Assembly: GCA_965214095.1 (NCBI GenBank)
Contig: OZ243938.1
Span: forward strand, 4,576,001 to 4,640,000
Direction of reading: 5' to 3'
DNA from: Candidatus Poribacteria bacterium
GTDB lineage: Bacteria > Poribacteria > WGA-4E > WGA-3G
DNA length: 64,000 nucleotides
Part shown: one piece after another, positions 1 to 6,509 of the stretch
How positions within the stretch are numbered: the first letter of the stretch is position 1
Layout of the letters: each line of letters opens with the position of its first letter
The notes under the pieces: model-generated
What the model was told of the DNA's origin: nothing
What the model saw: only the letters and a program-made list of their open reading frames with translations
Databases searched by the model: none
Position numbers and translations under genes: made by a program

Positions 1-1131
1 AACTCCACCAATGAGCACACTAATCCGTTTGTCAACTGCTATAAGAAGTGCAGCTGCAAGGATGGTAAGTACTGGATATAGAATCAACAGATGACGTATG
101 AAGGAGACCTTAAACGTTCCAATAAAGAGTAGATACGGAACTACAAAAGCAAGGATAAAGAATCCTGTGCGAATTTTTTCGTTTGATTTTGACAGTTCTT
201 TGTAAGAAAGTATCAACTTTACTATAGCAAACACTATAGCAATAGATATAAGTAATGCAAGTGGTAAACCCACACCCCACTTCAAGAGTGTCCACAAATA
301 TAGAAATCGATCTATCCATCCTGTATCACCCGTTGCGAACAATCCGAAATGTCCGCTATGATAGTGTTTGGATTCATACCAAAAGTCTTCAAAGAAATGA
401 TTCCATTCGGACGACAGTATGTCAATCAACCAATACGGACAAACAACCGTAAATGTCAAGGCACAAACAGCGATTATTGCGACAAACTTCCGATAAAAGT
501 GTTCTGTCCGAATAAAAATGACAAGAGATAGAAGGACAAAGACAGTTGGGAACTTCACAGCGATACATATCCCACTCACAATCCCAAGCCATATACAGGT
601 TCGGAAAGTCAGACCAGAATCTCTGGCAGCGAACCACAGGAACAGTGTCACACAGAAAGTGGCTGGAATGTCAACAAGTGCAAAACGGGATTCATTCGTC
701 GCGTGCAACATAGCCACCGTCAAGAAAGCCGCAGCAATCTGACCGACCCGTTTATTATAACACCTTGTACTGAGACAATATGTTAGCCAGATAGTGCTGG
801 TGGATAGAACAACATTGATGAACCGTGCTAACCAAATCACACGTGTTTCTGTTATATCCAATCCGAAGATTGAAAGCACTTTCCCAACGAATGTAATCAG
901 ATAGAACCATGCAGTTCCGGGCCAATTATATATTTCTGGAGGCGCGGAGAAATTGATAAGATTTATGATGTCTTCTGCAATCAGGACTTCACGTGGATCG
1001 GGGGTATCGGGTAGCCCCACACCTATTCCAAGAACGCGTATTACAAAACCGACAACAAGAATAGTAGGCATCAAGAGAATAGATAGGTAGGATGTGTAAT
1101 TCCTTAGCAGGTTAGGCGTTTTTATATTCAT
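1..1131 (-). CDS. GT-C fold membrane glycosyltransferase (GT39/ArnT/PMT-like), 3' end outside window
   Basis: Manual translation from ATG at 1131 (MNIKTPNLL...). Many TM segments; GLPDTPDPRE loop after TM1, LARFINV, SRFALVDIP, AVKFP motifs. Starts 2 nt after the GNAT stop. Confidence 0.75.
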   Translation of the reverse strand, partial: MNIKTPNLLRNYTSYLSILLMPTILVVGFVIRVLGIGVGLPDTPDPREVLIAEDIINLINFSAPPEIYNWPGTAWFYLITFVGKVLSIFGLDITETRVIWLARFINVVLSTSTIWLTYCLSTRCYNKRVGQIAAAFLTVAMLHATNESRFALVDIPATFCVTLFLWFAARDSGLTFRTCIWLGIVSGICIAVKFPTVFVLLSLVIFIRTEHFYRKFVAIIAVCALTFTVVCPYWLIDILSSEWNHFFEDFWYESKHYHSGHFGLFATGDTGWIDRFLYLWTLLKWGVGLPLALLISIAIVFAIVKLILSYKELSKSNEKIRTGFFILAFVVPYLLFIGTFKVSFIRHLLILYPVLTILAAALLIAVDKRISVLIGGV

Positions 1132-1133
1132 CG

Positions 1134-1730
1134 CTAACGCGAGACTTTTGCCCACAATTCAATTGGCAACAGTTCTTGGACTTGTGAAATTTGATCAGTA
1201 ATATGTGGGAGTTTAAGTGTTTTAAAGATGCCTTGCCATCGTTGTGTTTGAGTTTCGTCTACATAGACAGGTATAAATCCTAAATTGAGATAAGTCTTGA
1301 TTGCGGGGAGACGAAAATCGTCTGTATCAAGCATAGAACAAGTAAACCCATTCTCTTTAAAATAGAATAGGACAGCAAGCGATGCCCATTTACCGAGTTT
1401 TATCCGTGTGTGTGCACCTACAACACCAACCATGTGGACGTATCCAACATCTGTTTCATCAACAGACTGTCTCCATGCACAGGCAGTGGCGATAGGTATA
1501 TCTTGGTGTGTAATAAAATAGAGTCCATCAGGAGCAAATACGTCACGATTGGTAATTTCGTTTTGTGTGTCTTGTGCCGTTCGTGGTCTACCACCGAATG
1601 AATCACTAATGATGTTTGCCCAATGTATCTCATCCCCTTCTCGGTAAGTTCGCAGATGGTATCCTGAGGGTAGTTCTAATTTCGGTAAATCATTGAGGTC
1701 GGGTCTGACCATTCTGAGCTGTCGTGCCAT
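1134..1730 (-). CDS. GNAT family N-acetyltransferase
   Basis: VHMVGVVGAHTRIKLG motif A and AIKTYLNLGF motif B. Confidence 0.8.
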   Translation of the reverse strand: MARQLRMVRPDLNDLPKLELPSGYHLRTYREGDEIHWANIISDSFGGRPRTAQDTQNEITNRDVFAPDGLYFITHQDIPIATACAWRQSVDETDVGYVHMVGVVGAHTRIKLGKWASLAVLFYFKENGFTCSMLDTDDFRLPAIKTYLNLGFIPVYVDETQTQRWQGIFKTLKLPHITDQISQVQELLPIELWAKVSR

Positions 1731-1790
1731 CTTCTAATACCATTTGATATTGTCATAATTGCAGTTGTTTGAGTTGTCTTAACTTTCTTC

Positions 1791-1819
1791 AGTATATTAG
1801 ATAGCAGAATTAGTGTCAA
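1791..1819 (-). promoter_or_regulatory. sigma70-type promoter for GNAT-GT39
   Basis: Minus strand reads TTGACA-N17-TATACT. Confidence 0.65.
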
Positions 1820-1850
1820 GTGAATAGGACTAAATACATATCATAAAGTC

Positions 1851-1879
1851 TTGACATTTTCACTGAAACTTGATATACT
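1851..1879 (+). promoter_or_regulatory. sigma70-type promoter with extended -10, facing an ORF-less region
   Basis: TTGACA(1851)-N17-TATACT(1874), with TG at the extended -10 position. Confidence 0.7.
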
Positions 1880-1886
1880 CTTTTTT

Positions 1887-2199
1887 GCAGTCGGCATTGG
1901 TTCTGATTGATGCGGTGGTAGACCGCTTGGCAGTGAAACAATTAGGTCCAAGTCTTGCAATTCAATACTGCTAAAGTTTTCAAAAACATCTATTGCACGT
2001 TTAGGGTAGACGCATTGAAAAACGCTCACCCGTTTGAAAATCACGTGTCAAAAACAAATAGTTGCCTTCGGGCAAGTGGTTGGCTTAGCAACCACTGTGG
2101 TGACGGATTAAGACGTAGCTCTGATCAGCACTGTCTGTGAAGCACTAGTCCCAACCTTTAGGTTGTGGGTCACTATGACCTCAATATTCATATTATTTT
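1887..2199 (+). ncRNA. Candidate structured RNA / non-autonomous IS200/IS605 derivative with TnpB omega-RNA-like 3' end
   Basis: Successive hairpins GCGGT-ggtag-ACCGC, TTGCC-ttcg-GGCAA, GTGGTT..AACCAC and CCCAACC-ttta-GGTTgtGGG. The layout CTGTGG..TAAGAC..TGAAGCA..hairpin..TCAC/TGAC resembles tnpB right ends. No credible ORF. Confidence 0.5.
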
Positions 2200-2278
2200 G
2201 TAGGTCGGGTAGAAGCGATAGCGAAACCCGACTTTTTATAGTGTCATGTCGGGTTTCGTAAACTCTACCCGACCTACA
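2199..2278. repeat. GTAG-family REP doublet (REPIN-like inverted pair)
   Basis: TGTAGGTCGGGTAGA..CGAAACCCGAC / GTCGGGTTTCG..TCTACCCGACCTACA long inverted repeat. Confidence 0.8.
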
Positions 2279-2312
2279 ATCTATTATGACGGTTTTTTAA
2301 TTAGATATGGTA

Positions 2313-3359
2313 TTATACTGCAAGTTCAGACAACTTGATCGACTGTCCTCCAGTTTCTGCTGACCTATCAGCGGCAAAAACGACGCGGTGTGTTTCAAAT
2401 GCCGTATCAAAATCTGTCAACGGCATCGGTTCGTTTCGTCCGATGCTATCTATGAATGCTTGGAACTGCGGTTCATACGGGTGATCACTCACATCACCGG
2501 AGTCAATGAGTGATGTTTCAAGTGTGCTCCACTTACTTTTGTCCATTCCTTTTAGTTTTGCTGAATAGATTCGGTTATCAAGCAAACTTCCTTCACTTCC
2601 AACAAGGTGAATGTGGAAATAATATGGTTGCAGGCAATCTACACAAGAGGTAACTTTACCGATTTTCTGTCCTCCCTCAAACTTTAGCAGACTGACACTG
2701 GTAGTTTTGTATTCGTAAGGTTGAAATGCTTCACCTATGGATTTTGTATGATAACTGGTTACTTCTTCAACATTGCCATCCATAAAGAAGAGTAGTGCAT
2801 CAAGTGCATGACACCCCGCAGTGAGCAATGTACTTCCGCCGAAGTCCTTTTTGATATTCCATTCATATTGTCCATACCAAGGTCCAATGCCGTGGTAGTA
2901 ATCCACCTCTGCGTAATGTAGTTCTCCGAGTAGACCATTGTCAATTACGGAACGGATCATTGTGAAATGTGCACTATAACGGCACTCAAAACAGACACAT
3001 ACATTGACCCCTGTTGATTTTATAGCATCACGGATTGCCAAAGCATCTTGATATGTGAGACATATCGGTTTTTCAATGATAAGGTGTTTTCCTGCTTTTG
3101 CAGCAGCGATTGCCTGTTCAGCATGAAAAGGATGCGGTGTGCAAATATCAATTATGTGTATGTCAGGATCGGCAATCATCTTATCATAATCGGTATATGC
3201 TTTTAGCGGTGTGCCATAGGTTTCAGTTAATACAGATTCATCATGTTCGCGTCGTGAACAGATAGCGGTAACATCTGCCCCATCAACCGCTTTGAATGCT
3301 TCAATATGTGCACCTGCGACCCAACCAAGTCCAACAATTCCAACGTTTAGGTTTCCCAT
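2313..3359 (-). CDS. Gfo/Idh/MocA family oxidoreductase
   Basis: GIVGLGWVA Rossmann motif, [30 protein letters not shown]. Confidence 0.9.
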
Positions 3360-3423
3360 TACTAACTCCTTAAATTGTTTTTACGATATTTTAGCACAGT
3401 TGCAATTGTTTTGGAAAAGATAC

Positions 3424-3581
3424 TGTAGAATCACAGGTTTTTTTCGGATGACGCGGATAAACGTTTGGTATTTTTGAGTTCCGTTTTTAAGAAAGACGGT
3501 TAGCATATGTGAATGGTAAATTGATGGGTTAAAACCTTGTCCGTGCATTCCGTGTAATCCGTTTTAATTTGAGATTCAGAA
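3424..3581. repeat. Degenerate inverted-repeat element (CGGAT-tACaCGGA type)
   Basis: Left arm gaatcacag..cggatgacgcggataaacg imperfectly matches the reverse complement of the right arm, gaatctcaa..cggattacacggaatgcacgg. Confidence 0.35.
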
Positions 3582-3630
3582 AACACGGAAGTTCTACAGT
3601 TGAATTTCTCCGATTCATGTTCAAATTATT

Positions 3631-3659
3631 TTGACATAAAAACGATAATATGCTATAAT
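3631..3659 (+). promoter_or_regulatory. Consensus sigma70 promoter of guaB-like gene
   Basis: TTGACA-N17-TATAAT with extended TG. Confidence 0.8.
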
Positions 3660-3732
3660 TTAAAATAGTTGGCAAGCATTTTTTAGAAAAAGAATAGCGA
3701 ACCATTCTCACCCACCATAATCTATTAAATAG

Positions 3733-5250
<1,518 letters not shown>

Positions 5251-5285
5251 GATTATACTGAATTCTTCAGAAAGGAATATCGTTT

Positions 5286-5834
5286 ATGAAAGTTAACGAA
5301 GAGATGTCATTTTGGGATAGACTCTATATCCCAGCATTGCTTAAGGGGATGTTCACAACGTTAAAGCACATCCCGAAGAAGAAACTAACCGTCCAATATC
5401 CTGAAGATCCGCGAAGCGTCAATGAACGTAATGATCGCTATCGGGGTATCCACAAATTAACCACTACAGAAAAAGATGAAATCAAGTGTGTGGCATGTTT
5501 TTTATGTGCGACTGCGTGTCCAGCTGATTGCATTACAATACAGGCAGCACCTGCCCCAGAAGGTTGGACAACCAAAGAAGGTTACCAACGTGAAAAATAT
5601 CCTGATGTGTTTGAAATCAATATGCTCCGATGCATATTCTGCGGTTATTGTGTAGAGGCATGCCCAGAAGACGCTATACGTATGACAGGACTGACGTTAC
5701 CACAATACTTCAGAGAGCAACAAACTGAAGGTGAGAAACTTGGTGGTAAACGTAGTGATTTCATATTTGATCGTGATATGTTAGTCGCAAACAATGACAT
5801 TGCTCAGGAAGGATTAAGTGTTGACGCAAAGTAG
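5286..5834 (+). CDS. nuoI: NADH-quinone oxidoreductase subunit I (2x[4Fe-4S])
   Basis: TVQYPE, RYRGIH, CVACFLCATACP, FEINMLRCIFCGYCVEACP. Confidence 0.85.
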   Translation: MKVNEEMSFWDRLYIPALLKGMFTTLKHIPKKKLTVQYPEDPRSVNERNDRYRGIHKLTTTEKDEIKCVACFLCATACPADCITIQAAPAPEGWTTKEGYQREKYPDVFEINMLRCIFCGYCVEACPEDAIRMTGLTLPQYFREQQTEGEKLGGKRSDFIFDRDMLVANNDIAQEGLSVDAK

Positions 5835-5873
5835 CATATAAGATCGTATTCTGATAACGTGCTACAATCGCGC

Positions 5874-5902
5874 TTGTAATTTGGGTAATACTGTTGTATA
5901 AT
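5874..5902 (+). promoter_or_regulatory. Possible sigma70 promoter of MT-A70 gene
   Basis: TTGTAA-N17-TATAAT. Confidence 0.5.
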
Positions 5903-5930
5903 ATTATAAAGTTTAGTCTGTTAACTTAAT

Positions 5931-6509
5931 ATGAATTCGCACCCGCCATTCCCGAAGAAAAAATATCAAATACTCTACGCAGATCCACCCTGGGACTACA
6001 AAGGTCAACTGCAACACACAGGTTCAGGTGGAAAAGATAGTGGTGGAGCCATACGTCATTATCCGACCCTTTCTGTTGATGAAATGGCTAATTGGAATAT
6101 TGCATCCATTACTTCAGATAACTGCCTGCTTTTCATGTGGAGTACATCACCGCATCTCGACCAAGCCATACGGTTAGGTAAAGCCTGGGGATTTCGTTGG
6201 GCTACAGTTGCATTTGTATGGGATAAATGCCGCGTAAACCCTGGATTCTATACAATGAGCCAATGTGAATTGTGTCTTGTATTCAAACATGGAACAATTC
6301 CTCAACCGAGAGGGTTGCGTAATATTAGACAACTTGTGCAATCACAACGTAACCAACATTCAGAAAAACCTGATGAGGTACGCAAAAGGATTGATGAGAT
6401 GTTTCCTCAACAGAATAAACTTGAACTTTTTGCACGTAAGAAAGTTAAAGGTTGGGATGTGTGGGGACTTGAAATTGAGAACGAATTGAATATGAAAAAT
6501 ATCACCTGA
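5931..6509 (+). CDS. MT-A70 family N6-adenine methyltransferase
   Basis: YADPPW catalytic motif, LFMW, FVWDK, HSEKP, KLELFAR, GWDVWG. Confidence 0.9.
   Translation: MNSHPPFPKKKYQILYADPPWDYKGQLQHTGSGGKDSGGAIRHYPTLSVDEMANWNIASITSDNCLLFMWSTSPHLDQAIRLGKAWGFRWATVAFVWDKCRVNPGFYTMSQCELCLVFKHGTIPQPRGLRNIRQLVQSQRNQHSEKPDEVRKRIDEMFPQQNKLELFARKKVKGWDVWGLEIENELNMKNIT

What the first reader, a model, noticed from the sequence alone, without database searches (positions are those of the whole stretch)
1851..2278. Promoter-driven, protein-free RNA resembling a TnpB omega-RNA, with a ~20-nt guide-like segment capped by a REP hairpin
Seen: a TTGACA-N17-TATACT promoter points into ~300 nt with no credible ORF but at least five hairpins, including a cUUCGg tetraloop. 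GACGG(2102) can pair with CTGTC(2131), and GTGA(2137) with TCAC(2170). TTGAT sits directly before the first GCGGT/ACCGC hairpin. The structured part ends at TCAC(2173) or TGAC(2179), followed by 20-26 unstructured nt and then a REP doublet. Known: IS200/IS605 right ends encode the TnpB scaffold and use flanking DNA as guide; TTGAT is the ISDra2 TAM. Inference: an internally deleted IS200/IS605 element that still expresses a guide RNA for TnpB or a TnpB-derived regulator in trans, with the REP hairpin possibly fixing its 3' end.
Basis: partly seen in the sequence, partly recalled or inferred. Interest (0 to 1): 0.7.

Follow-up and report, generated by a model that had tools for sequence, protein, structure and literature searches.

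The report
Truncated gene-less TnpB guide-RNA mini-transposon
This stretch is a copy of a small protein-less jumping element that has lost its left end but keeps a strong promoter and the folded guide-RNA part used by the TnpB nucleases of this sponge-symbiont genome, a known kind of selfish DNA that here carries an extra, well-conserved RNA domain of unknown role.

Summary
Window 2072-2179 is homologous to the right end that follows five tnpB genes in the same genome. All 16 copies stop at the same base (2179), and the fold is supported by compensatory changes.

In sister genomes of the same Candidatus Poribacteria genus, the whole of 1850-2179 is the body of a roughly 405-nt gene-less IS200/IS605 mini-element (PATE / stand-alone omega-RNA type). 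These elements occur in several copies with different flanks. Each has a left-end hairpin, an invariant TTGACA-17-TATACT promoter, a 178-nt structured 'A' domain and the omega-RNA scaffold.

The window copy lacks the left-end hairpin. It begins at about 1836, exactly where synteny with the nearest relatives breaks, so it should no longer be able to move. It still keeps the promoter and every predicted base pair (47 of 47).

Its 3' flank has no second TAM-adjacent match in the genome. The family's TAM is TTAAC-like, not TTGAT, which lies inside a conserved helix. The locus is not conserved in relatives, so this is not a domesticated regulator.

Gene-less elements that encode omega-RNAs are already in print. 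What is new is the A domain: it is found only in gene-less elements, in two genera, and is more conserved than the element ends. Expression of this locus is not shown.

The parts
1836..1849 (+). Last bases of the left-end spacer. The rest of the left end (about 57 nt with the subterminal hairpin and the TAM junction) is missing.
   Evidence: Homology of the left flank to G051 (90%), G021 (87%), G005 and G001 stops at 1835. Similarity to full copies is weak here (about 10 of 15 bases) and unambiguous from 1850 onward.
1851..1879 (+). Sigma-70-type promoter: TTGACA, 17-nt spacer, TATACT, with a TG before the -10. The start site is expected at about 1886-1887.
   Evidence: 11 of 12 consensus positions. 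Both hexamers are invariant in 9 of 9 aligned copies while the spacer varies. Promoter hexamers are also present in other subfamilies. The start site is inferred from the usual spacing.
1884..2061 (+). 'A' domain: a 178-nt structured RNA domain between the promoter and the omega-RNA scaffold.
   Evidence: Alignment A5 and model R1. It has 28 pairs, 12 with compensatory changes; 97.7% of cells are paired against 24-43% when partners are slid; 0 of 500 shuffles reach the observed value. The window keeps 28 of 28 pairs. The model matches the window at 1884-2061.
2062..2075 (+). Connector hairpin with a UUCG tetraloop.
   Evidence: Read from the sequence. It is kept in type-1 copies and replaced by a different hairpin at the same place in other subfamilies.
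2072..2179 (+). 'B' domain: TnpB omega-RNA scaffold and transposon right end, ending ...ACTATGAC. Helices: 2079-2082/2089-2092; 2097-2099/2143-2145; 2102-2105/2132-2135; subterminal hairpin 2149-2155/2161-2169.
   Evidence: The nhmmer profile hit covers 2072-2179. Alignment A1 of 14 copies, 5 of them tnpB-linked, gives 19 pairs, 7 with compensatory change. The window keeps 19 of 19 pairs.
2180..2195 (+). Guide-position flank. Bases 2180-2192 are unique sequence; from 2193 it is already the REP unit.
   Evidence: Every copy diverges after 2179. There is no second exact match in the genome. The only 1-mismatch match lacks a TAM. No match with 2 or fewer mismatches sits behind a TT[ATC][ACG]C motif.
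2193..2279 (.). REP-like palindromic doublet, an independent repeat family. The two closest copies extend to 2315. Its first arm (2204-2232) is followed by a T run at 2233-2237, which looks like a + strand terminator.
   Evidence: 95 BLAST pieces at about 60 loci in the genome; most start at 2193-2199 and end at 2278-2283. It is also abundant in all 40 genomes of the genus searched. The terminator reading comes from the sequence only and was not found by the scan, whose loop limit is 8.

Best explanation
Window 1836-2179 is a 5'-truncated, no longer mobile copy of a roughly 405-nt gene-less IS200/IS605-family mini-transposon (PATE / stand-alone omega-RNA type). It derives from the tnpB-only (IS1341-type) elements of this Candidatus Poribacteria lineage.

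A full copy has, in order: a TTAAC-like target motif, a left-end hairpin, a consensus sigma-70 promoter, a 178-nt structured A domain, a small connector hairpin, and a roughly 110-nt omega-RNA scaffold that ends at the transposon right end. The neighbouring DNA then serves as the guide.

Inferred life cycle of the family:
- A Y1 TnpA made elsewhere excises and inserts the element.
- The element's own promoter makes a roughly 300-nt RNA.
- A TnpB made by a full-length element binds the 3' scaffold, probably after trimming the 5' part.
- That complex cuts the emptied TTAAC-plus-flank site, so the element is copied back.

The window copy lost the left-end hairpin at a rearrangement junction. It therefore cannot be excised, and its guide has no cleavable target. 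It is most likely a relic that is still transcribed and can still load TnpB, with no function of its own.

Shown: the homology, the boundaries, the covarying fold, the conserved promoter, the missing left end, the absence of synteny, and the absence of a second target. Inferred: transcription of this copy, TnpB loading, and the homing role.
For: Right-end homology:
- 2139-2179 is 95% identical to the ends following three tnpB genes.
- The profile search finds 16 copies, 5 of them tnpB-linked, all ending at the same base with unrelated DNA beyond.

Structure:
- Scaffold: 19 pairs, 7 compensatory; 91.1% of cells paired against 30-44% when slid.
- A domain: 28 pairs, 12 compensatory.

Full mobile copies in congeners:
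- G022 has 5 copies, G003 has 4, G006 has 3, and G013 and G002 have 1 each, at 75-85% identity over all 330 bases.
- Nine aligned copies show a left end like that of the tnpB elements and different DNA on both sides.

Compatible nuclease:
- The 370-aa protein hits PF07282 and PF01385, and matches ISDra2 TnpB (8bf8) at E = 8.5e-38.
- All 5 related proteins keep the three acidic RuvC motifs (the motif positions are recalled, not tested).
- 5 Y1 transposase matches are present in the genome.

Truncation and lack of synteny:
- The left flank is conserved only up to 1835. The right flank is conserved only from 2313.
- The two flanking genes lie on different contigs in G051 and 1.26 Mb apart in G021.

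Other support:
- No conserved ORF and no Rfam family.
- Print: PATEs 'often encode omega-RNAs' acted on in trans (PMC10055086, passages read).
- Stand-alone mobilised omega-RNAs work in trans (PMC10691335, passage read).
- The subterminal hairpin lies within 10 nt of the scaffold end, and processed omega-RNAs range from 79 to 466 nt (PMC10278001, section 13 read).
Against: - Transcription of this locus is not shown. The contigs from RNA libraries that match are only 90-95% identical, carry other flanks, and so come from relatives' copies. Such libraries can also contain DNA.
- Every one of the 47 predicted pairs and both promoter hexamers are intact despite 15-18% divergence from the nearest full copies. 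A long-dead relic might be expected to show damage. That divergence may, however, predate the truncation.
- The A domain has no explanation under a plain 'deleted IS' model.
- Compatibility of the resident TnpA and TnpB with this scaffold was not tested. The internal stem at 2107-2130 differs from that of the tnpB-linked copies.
Confidence: 0.85

Rival explanations
1. The locus is a domesticated, host-serving guide RNA. The RNA made from 1886 onward directs a TnpB, or a nuclease-dead TnpB-like repressor, to a chromosomal site in trans.
For: - The promoter and all 47 pairs are intact although the element can no longer move.
- Several intact TnpBs are present in the genome.
- TnpB-derived RNA-guided repressors exist (PMC10705468 and PMC13622181, abstracts seen in the listings).
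Against: - The locus is not syntenic. The nearest relatives (G051, G021, G005, G001) have other DNA after 1835 and before 2313.
- No TAM-adjacent match to the 16-nt guide with 2 or fewer mismatches exists. The 3 TAM-adjacent hits among 102 three-mismatch matches compare with about 1 expected from a TAM frequency of 1%.
- The guide position is partly occupied by a REP unit from base 14.
- The five related TnpBs keep their catalytic motifs.
Confidence: 0.06
2. The A domain is the functional part: a stand-alone regulatory or catalytic RNA that uses the mini-transposon only as a vehicle. On this view the window copy is an sRNA gene.
For: - A is the best-conserved part of the element. Mean column identity is 79% across four end types.
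- It is 74% identical between two subfamilies whose other parts are not detectably similar by BLAST.
- Covariation is strong.
- It was found in 49 of 151 genomes of the order, in two genera.
Against: - In all 36 distinct places examined, A sits inside a mini-element between a left end (or its remnant) and a right end. It never stands alone.
- It has no complementarity elsewhere in the genome.
- No Rfam family or ribozyme model matches.
Confidence: 0.07
3. Read-through from the promoter acts as an antisense RNA against the convergent oxidoreductase gene (2313-3359, - strand).
For: The two are arranged convergently with no gene between them. The closest paralogous copy (C1:3131649) also faces the 3' end of an oxidoreductase gene of the same broad type.
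Against: - A terminator-like hairpin with a T run (2204-2237) and the long REP palindrome lie between them.
- The arrangement is not conserved in relatives.
- The two oxidoreductases are not close paralogues, judged by eye.
Confidence: 0.02

Closest known systems
PATEs (palindrome-associated transposable elements) of IS200/IS605 that encode omega-RNAs, as noted for Geobacillus stearothermophilus (Meers et al. 2023 preprint, PMC10055086; passages read)
   Same: They are gene-less. Their left and right ends resemble those of co-resident tnpB elements. The omega-RNA scaffold lies at the right end, the flank serves as guide, and both TnpA and TnpB must act in trans.
   Different: Here the element carries its own consensus promoter and an extra 178-nt covarying RNA domain. 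The passages I read make no mention of either. The window copy also lacks the left end. I could not see that paper's Extended Data figures.
Stand-alone, mobilised omega-RNAs lacking an effector (introduction of Altae-Tran et al. 2023, PMC10691335; passage read)
   Same: An omega-RNA locus without a nuclease or transposase gene, in a genome that also holds effector-bearing loci. These are reported to work in trans.
   Different: The original description is in a paper I did not read. Whether those loci carry extra 5' domains is unknown to me.
ISDra2 TnpB with its omega-RNA (PDB 8bf8, 8exa, 8h1j)
   Same: The resident 370-aa protein matches at E = 8.5e-38 over residues 18-369. The scaffold overlaps the last codons of tnpB and ends at the right end with a subterminal hairpin, and the guide follows.
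   Different: The TAM here is TTAAC-like, not TTGAT. No sequence similarity to the ISDra2 RNA was tested. The window has no tnpB gene.
TldR (nuclease-dead TnpB-like repressor) guide RNAs
   Same: An immobile guide-RNA locus derived from a transposon right end.
   Different: There is no dead TnpB next to it, no conserved synteny and no target match.

Membership tests
IS200/IS605 gene-less derivative (PATE / stand-alone omega-RNA element) | A right end with a subterminal hairpin and a sharp boundary shared with tnpB-bearing copies | tested here: met
   16 copies end at the same base. The hairpin at 2149-2169 ends 10 nt before the boundary.
IS200/IS605 gene-less derivative (PATE / stand-alone omega-RNA element) | A left end with a subterminal hairpin directly after the target motif | tested here: not met
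   It is absent in the window copy, where homology starts at about 1836-1850. It is present in 8 of 8 aligned full copies of congeners and in g9 copies. The window therefore holds a truncated member.
IS200/IS605 gene-less derivative (PATE / stand-alone omega-RNA element) | No protein-coding gene inside | tested here: met
   The longest frame is 61 aa and is broken in 8 of 8 relatives.
IS200/IS605 gene-less derivative (PATE / stand-alone omega-RNA element) | Several copies with unrelated flanks (evidence of mobility) | tested here: met
   Shown for the family: 14 full copies in 5 congeners, with differing flanks in 8 aligned copies. In the window's own genome the A+B type has only this copy and one decayed copy.
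IS200/IS605 gene-less derivative (PATE / stand-alone omega-RNA element) | A Y1 TnpA in the genome able to act on these ends | tested here: inconclusive
   5 PF01797 matches are present. Their end specificity was not examined.
TnpB omega-RNA | A scaffold homologous to the 3' end of tnpB plus the right end, with a conserved fold | tested here: met
   In the tnpB-linked copies the tnpB stop codon lies within the first scaffold hairpin.
TnpB omega-RNA | Transcribed, with its 3' part reaching into the flank | tested here: inconclusive
   Contigs from RNA libraries cover relatives' copies from 1839 or 1889 through the right end into other flanks. They are not from this locus, they are contigs only, and DNA carry-over is possible.
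TnpB omega-RNA | Bound by TnpB and directing TAM-dependent cleavage | not testable with these tools
   This needs RIP and interference assays.
TldR-type domesticated guide RNA | A nuclease-dead TnpB homologue, fixed synteny, and a guide matching a promoter region | tested here: not met
   no synteny; catalytic motifs kept in the 5 related TnpBs; no target. The other 17 TnpB-like matches were not inspected.
Any Rfam family | A score at or near the gathering threshold | tested here: not met
   Window 1-6000 gave one chance-level match on the REP palindrome (23.6 bits against 116.6 required; E = 0.72). There were 0 matches in 5 related loci.

The most novel reading that the evidence does not exclude
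The A domain is an RNA module that evolved in, and is confined to, gene-less 'parasites of the parasite'. On this reading it lets the mini-element's transcript be made, matured or loaded onto TnpB in trans, in competition with the nuclease's own mRNA-borne omega-RNA. That would explain why it is more conserved than the transposon ends and is shared by mini-elements with at least four different end types in two genera. It would be a new functional RNA class tied to RNA-guided nucleases.
Probability: 0.2. Interest if true: 0.7.

Novelty: new variant of a known kind. Interest (0 to 1): 0.38.

Why it matters
Gene-less elements that keep only a promoter and a TnpB guide scaffold show that guide RNA and nuclease are separable parts of these transposons. 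That is the same split seen in CRISPR systems.

This family adds a long, strongly covarying 5' RNA domain that appears only when the nuclease gene is absent. If that domain helps a guide RNA win access to a nuclease made elsewhere, it would be a natural example of RNA-level competition for an RNA-guided enzyme. It could also be a useful handle for engineering TnpB guides.

The window copy itself is an ordinary relic. It does mark a genome rearrangement junction in a sponge symbiont lineage that is heavily loaded with tnpB: 22 to 97 matches per genome in those checked.

Tried and rejected
- **Rfam:** window 1-6000 at E up to 1 and five related loci gave nothing usable.
- **TTGAT as TAM:** rejected. 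It is internal, invariant and partly base-paired.
- **Decayed left end at 1775-1835:** I first read this stretch that way. Rejected, because it is conserved in relatives that lack the element and holds the - strand promoter of the neighbouring gene.
- **Element spanning C1:4997916-4999223:** I took the left-part and right-part matches there for one 1.3-kb element. Rejected: the left part is a different mini-element split by an IS5-type insertion, with a - strand ORF between.
- **Empty site in relatives:** not obtainable, because both flanks lie at a synteny break.
- **Guide target search:** nothing beyond chance.
- **A domain inside or beside tnpB genes:**
  - None in the own genome.
  - None between A and a right end in 39 loci, which are 36 distinct places including the window.
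  - The one neighbouring tnpB (G017) lies beyond the element's own end and a tRNA-Phe gene.
  - In one search, 122 of the TnpB matches were not listed, so adjacency in those five genomes was checked only against the listed rows.
- **A-to-B intermolecular pairing by duplexfold:** long, unspecific duplexes only. A short match between the 5' end of A and one scaffold strand is not kept across subfamilies. Dropped.
- **RNA runs:** the small shares of words in X1-X11 are no evidence of habitat. Parts of the stretch without cover mean nothing.
- **Earlier scan notes by place and by sequence:** nothing found.
- **Literature:** no paper in the library holds both 'Poribacteria' and 'TnpB'. Searches turned up no description of an extra 5' domain in such mini-elements, but I read only passages, and supplements were closed.

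Full report
**1. What is at the coordinates**

The intergenic stretch 1731-2312 lies between two - strand genes. One is an acetyltransferase-like ORF at 1134-1730. The other is a Gfo/Idh/MocA-type oxidoreductase ORF at 2313-3359 (the names are my reading of the translations and were not searched).

The promoter TTGACA-17-TATACT is at 1851-1879. It matches 11 of 12 consensus positions and has a TG before the -10. The scan found 4 promoter-like sites where shuffles give 2.7 +/- 1.7, so the motif alone is not significant.

Rfam gave only a chance-level match on the REP palindrome. Both strands of 1886-2280 fold better than shuffles, with z = -4.86 and -6.25. The palindrome contributes to both values.

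**2. The 3' part is a tnpB right end**

BLAST and a profile search of the whole genome (5.25 Mb, 4 contigs) show that the stretch is a mosaic of repeats.
- Window 2072-2179 has 15 further copies, and all of them stop at the base equivalent to 2179 (...ACTATGAC).
- Beyond that base every copy has unrelated DNA.
- Five copies sit directly after tnpB genes. Three of these are 370-aa genes, 95% identical to the window over 2139-2179. The others are one 373-aa gene and one N-terminally shortened 323-aa gene.
- In these five copies the tnpB stop codon lies in the first scaffold hairpin. This is the layout known for ISDra2-type omega-RNAs.

The 370-aa protein carries PF07282 and PF01385, and matches ISDra2 TnpB structures at E = 8.5e-38. 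All five proteins keep the acidic RuvC motifs (the motif identity is recalled).

On an alignment of 14 copies, RNAalifold predicts 19 pairs, 7 of them with compensatory changes.

- 91.1% of cells are paired, against 30-44% when partners are slid.
- 0 of 500 shuffles reach the observed covariation score.

**3. The whole of 1850-2179 is the body of a mini-transposon**

In the window's own genome, the 5' part (1850-2053) matched only three near-identical roughly 440-nt elements, at 74% identity. The left and right ends of those elements match a different tnpB element, the 391-aa type. One of the three is split by an IS5-type insertion.

Sister genomes settle the matter. 16 of 41 relatives searched have matches, counting the window's own genome. 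That is 15 of 24 in the same genus and 0 of 16 in three other families. Full-length matches to all 330 bases occur 5 times in G022, 4 times in G003, 3 times in G006, and once each in G013 and G002.

Aligned with flanks, the eight full copies share the following, in order:
- a TTAAC-like motif;
- a left end nearly identical to that of the window genome's 370-aa tnpB elements;
- the promoter, with CTTGACA and TTGATAT..T invariant in 9 of 9 and a variable spacer;
- the A domain;
- the scaffold.

DNA on both sides differs from copy to copy. That is the signature of a mobile, gene-less IS200/IS605 derivative of about 405 nt.

A second such family in the window's genome has four near-identical roughly 400-nt copies. 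It also has a left-end hairpin and a TTGACA-17-TAAAAT promoter.

**4. The window copy is truncated and sits at a rearrangement junction**

- The left flank is conserved in 36 of 40 genomes of the genus, counting the window's own. In the four closest (G051 at 90%, G021 at 87%, G005 and G001 at 83%) the match stops at window 1828-1836, at 1835 in the two nearest.
- A contig from an RNA library diverges at the same base.
- The right flank is conserved in 40 of 40, but only from 2313, the stop codon of the oxidoreductase gene.
- In G051 the two flanking genes are on different contigs. In G021 they lie 1.26 Mb apart. What follows the oxidoreductase gene there is a different gene.

The window therefore has about 15 bases of left-end spacer, then the promoter. 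The left-end hairpin and TAM junction, roughly 57 nt, are missing.

By the established IS608 mechanism, TnpA needs both subterminal hairpins, so this copy should not be excisable. This is an inference.

The stretch 1775-1835, which I first took for a decayed left end, is conserved in element-free relatives. It carries a second 11-of-12 promoter on the - strand (1819-1791), facing the acetyltransferase-like gene.

**5. The guide position**

- After 2179 come 13 unique bases. A REP-like unit follows from 2193. That unit has about 60 loci in this genome and is abundant throughout the genus.
- The 16-nt guide-position sequence has no second exact match in the genome. It has one 1-mismatch match, where I estimate about 0.5 is expected by chance, and that match has no TAM.
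- There is no match with 2 or fewer mismatches behind TT[ATC][ACG]C.
- 3 of the 102 three-mismatch matches carry that motif, which occurs at 1% of positions.

The TAM itself was read from 18 left-end junctions. Mostly it is TTAAC, with TTTAC, TTCAC and TTAGC variants. This is my reading of the alignments, not an assay.

TTGAT (1907-1911) is invariant in 14 of 14 A domains, and its first three bases pair within helix 1902-1909/1939-1946.

**6. The A domain**

Fourteen A domains from elements with four different end types align at 79% mean column identity.
- RNAalifold gives 28 pairs, 12 of them with compensatory changes.
- 97.7% of cells pair, against 24-43% when partners are slid. 0 of 500 shuffles reach the count of covarying pairs or the covariation score.
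- Several invariant G-U pairs fit the + strand only.

A covariance model (R1) finds the domain in 49 of 151 genomes of the order, counting the window's own. It occurs only in the window's family: genus g1 in 18 of 37 and genus g9 in 30 of 60. It was found in 0 genomes of the 15 other genera searched, including 0 of 47 genomes in the three other families.

Nine g9 copies have the same order of parts: left end, A domain, scaffold.

In the own genome the profile finds five places, all gene-less elements. One of them, at C1:3131768-3131969, is decayed.

Of 39 loci holding A (36 distinct places, including the window), none has tnpB between A and the right end. The single neighbouring tnpB, in G017, lies beyond the element's own right end and a tRNA-Phe gene.

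No Rfam model matches. The window copy keeps 28 of 28 A pairs and 19 of 19 scaffold pairs.

The function of A is unknown. Processed TnpB omega-RNAs of 79-466 nt have been reported, and TnpB trims the 5' side of its own transcript (PMC10278001, abstract and sections 12-13 read). A roughly 300-nt precursor is therefore not out of range.

**7. Expression**

One search of public runs and one lay were allowed.

Contigs from RNA libraries match at 90-95% identity and continue into other flanks. They therefore represent related copies, not this locus.
- Runs X1 and X6 are labelled sponge metagenome and X2 is labelled metagenome. X2 and X6 give identical contigs and may be one data set.
- A 364-nt contig at depth 47 covers 1889-2170 and runs on past the right end. 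Its other side joins 28 unrelated letters exactly at 1889, three bases from the expected start.
- Another contig covers 1839-2170.

These are hints that family members are transcribed from the predicted promoter. They are no more than that, because contigs cannot show ends and DNA can be present in such libraries.

**8. Comparison with what is known**

Two papers already describe this kind of element.
- The Meers et al. preprint states that PATE elements 'often encode omega-RNAs' that must be acted on in trans (PMC10055086, passages read).
- Altae-Tran et al. state that stand-alone mobilised omega-RNAs occur beside effector-bearing loci and work in trans (PMC10691335, passage read).

Earlier reports of this scan describe similar promoter-plus-scaffold mini-elements in other genomes and filed them as a known kind. 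I did not test those reports.

The kind is therefore known. Two things are particular here: the truncated, junction-located state of this copy, and the A domain.

I found no paper holding both 'Poribacteria' and 'TnpB'. The passages I read contain no description of such a 5' domain. Supplements and Extended Data could not be seen and may bear on this.

**9. Verdict**

The best explanation is an immobilised relic of a promoter-bearing omega-RNA mini-transposon (confidence 0.85). A host-serving guide RNA is unlikely (0.06).

Novelty is a new variant of a known kind, because of the A domain. Interest is 0.38.

Noticed in passing
window 2193-2279 (to 2315): A REP-like palindromic doublet family with about 60 loci in this genome and hundreds of matches across all 40 genomes of the genus. 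One short Y1-transposase-like match (C1:2666075-2666299, open frame 115 aa) could be a RAYT-type partner, but it was not examined.
   Followed up: partly
window 1791-1819 (- strand) and 1851-1879 (+ strand): Two back-to-back promoters, each matching 11 of 12 consensus positions, lie 31 bases apart. The - strand one faces the acetyltransferase-like gene and is conserved in relatives that lack the element.
   Followed up: partly
window 1835/1836 and 2312/2313: A synteny break. The two flanking genes are on different contigs in G051 and 1.26 Mb apart in G021. Each relative has different DNA after the base equivalent to 1835, so this point may be a recurrent insertion or rearrangement site.
   Followed up: partly
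G000:C1:781030-781434, 959174-959580, 3279134-3279540, 5082160-5082566 (approximate left ends): Four near-identical roughly 400-nt gene-less elements with a left-end hairpin, a TTGACA-17-TAAAAT promoter and the same scaffold family. They look recently mobile.
   Followed up: partly
L005 564-1483 (G000:C1:4996979-4997898): An IS5-type element (ORFs of 143 and 149 aa) is inserted into the promoter region of another mini-element, separating its left end from the rest.
   Followed up: partly
L041 about 400-545 and L038 about 390-530 (G000:C1:1048100-1048250, 3142290-3142440): Two tnpB-less scaffold copies are preceded by a shared GC-rich stretch of about 150 nt. It is unlike the A domain and has no Rfam match.
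   Followed up: no
L050 1305-1379 and 5-1006 (G017): A short A-bearing mini-element, a tRNA-Phe gene and a 370-aa-type tnpB element are packed within 1.6 kb. This looks like a tRNA-adjacent insertion hotspot.
   Followed up: partly
G000 contig C2 (32,066 bases): This contig has 64% G+C, against 41% for the main chromosome. It may be foreign DNA or a mis-binned contig.
   Followed up: no
genomes G003, G022, G051, G135: The tnpB load is very high: 97, 51, 50 and 55 matches to the TnpB zinc-ribbon domain, against 22 in the window's genome.
   Followed up: no
runs X2 and X6, contig covering 1889-2170: The 28 letters joined at 1889 look like eukaryotic 5.8S rRNA (recalled resemblance, not searched). 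The contig may therefore be a chimera formed at an RNA 5' end.
   Followed up: no
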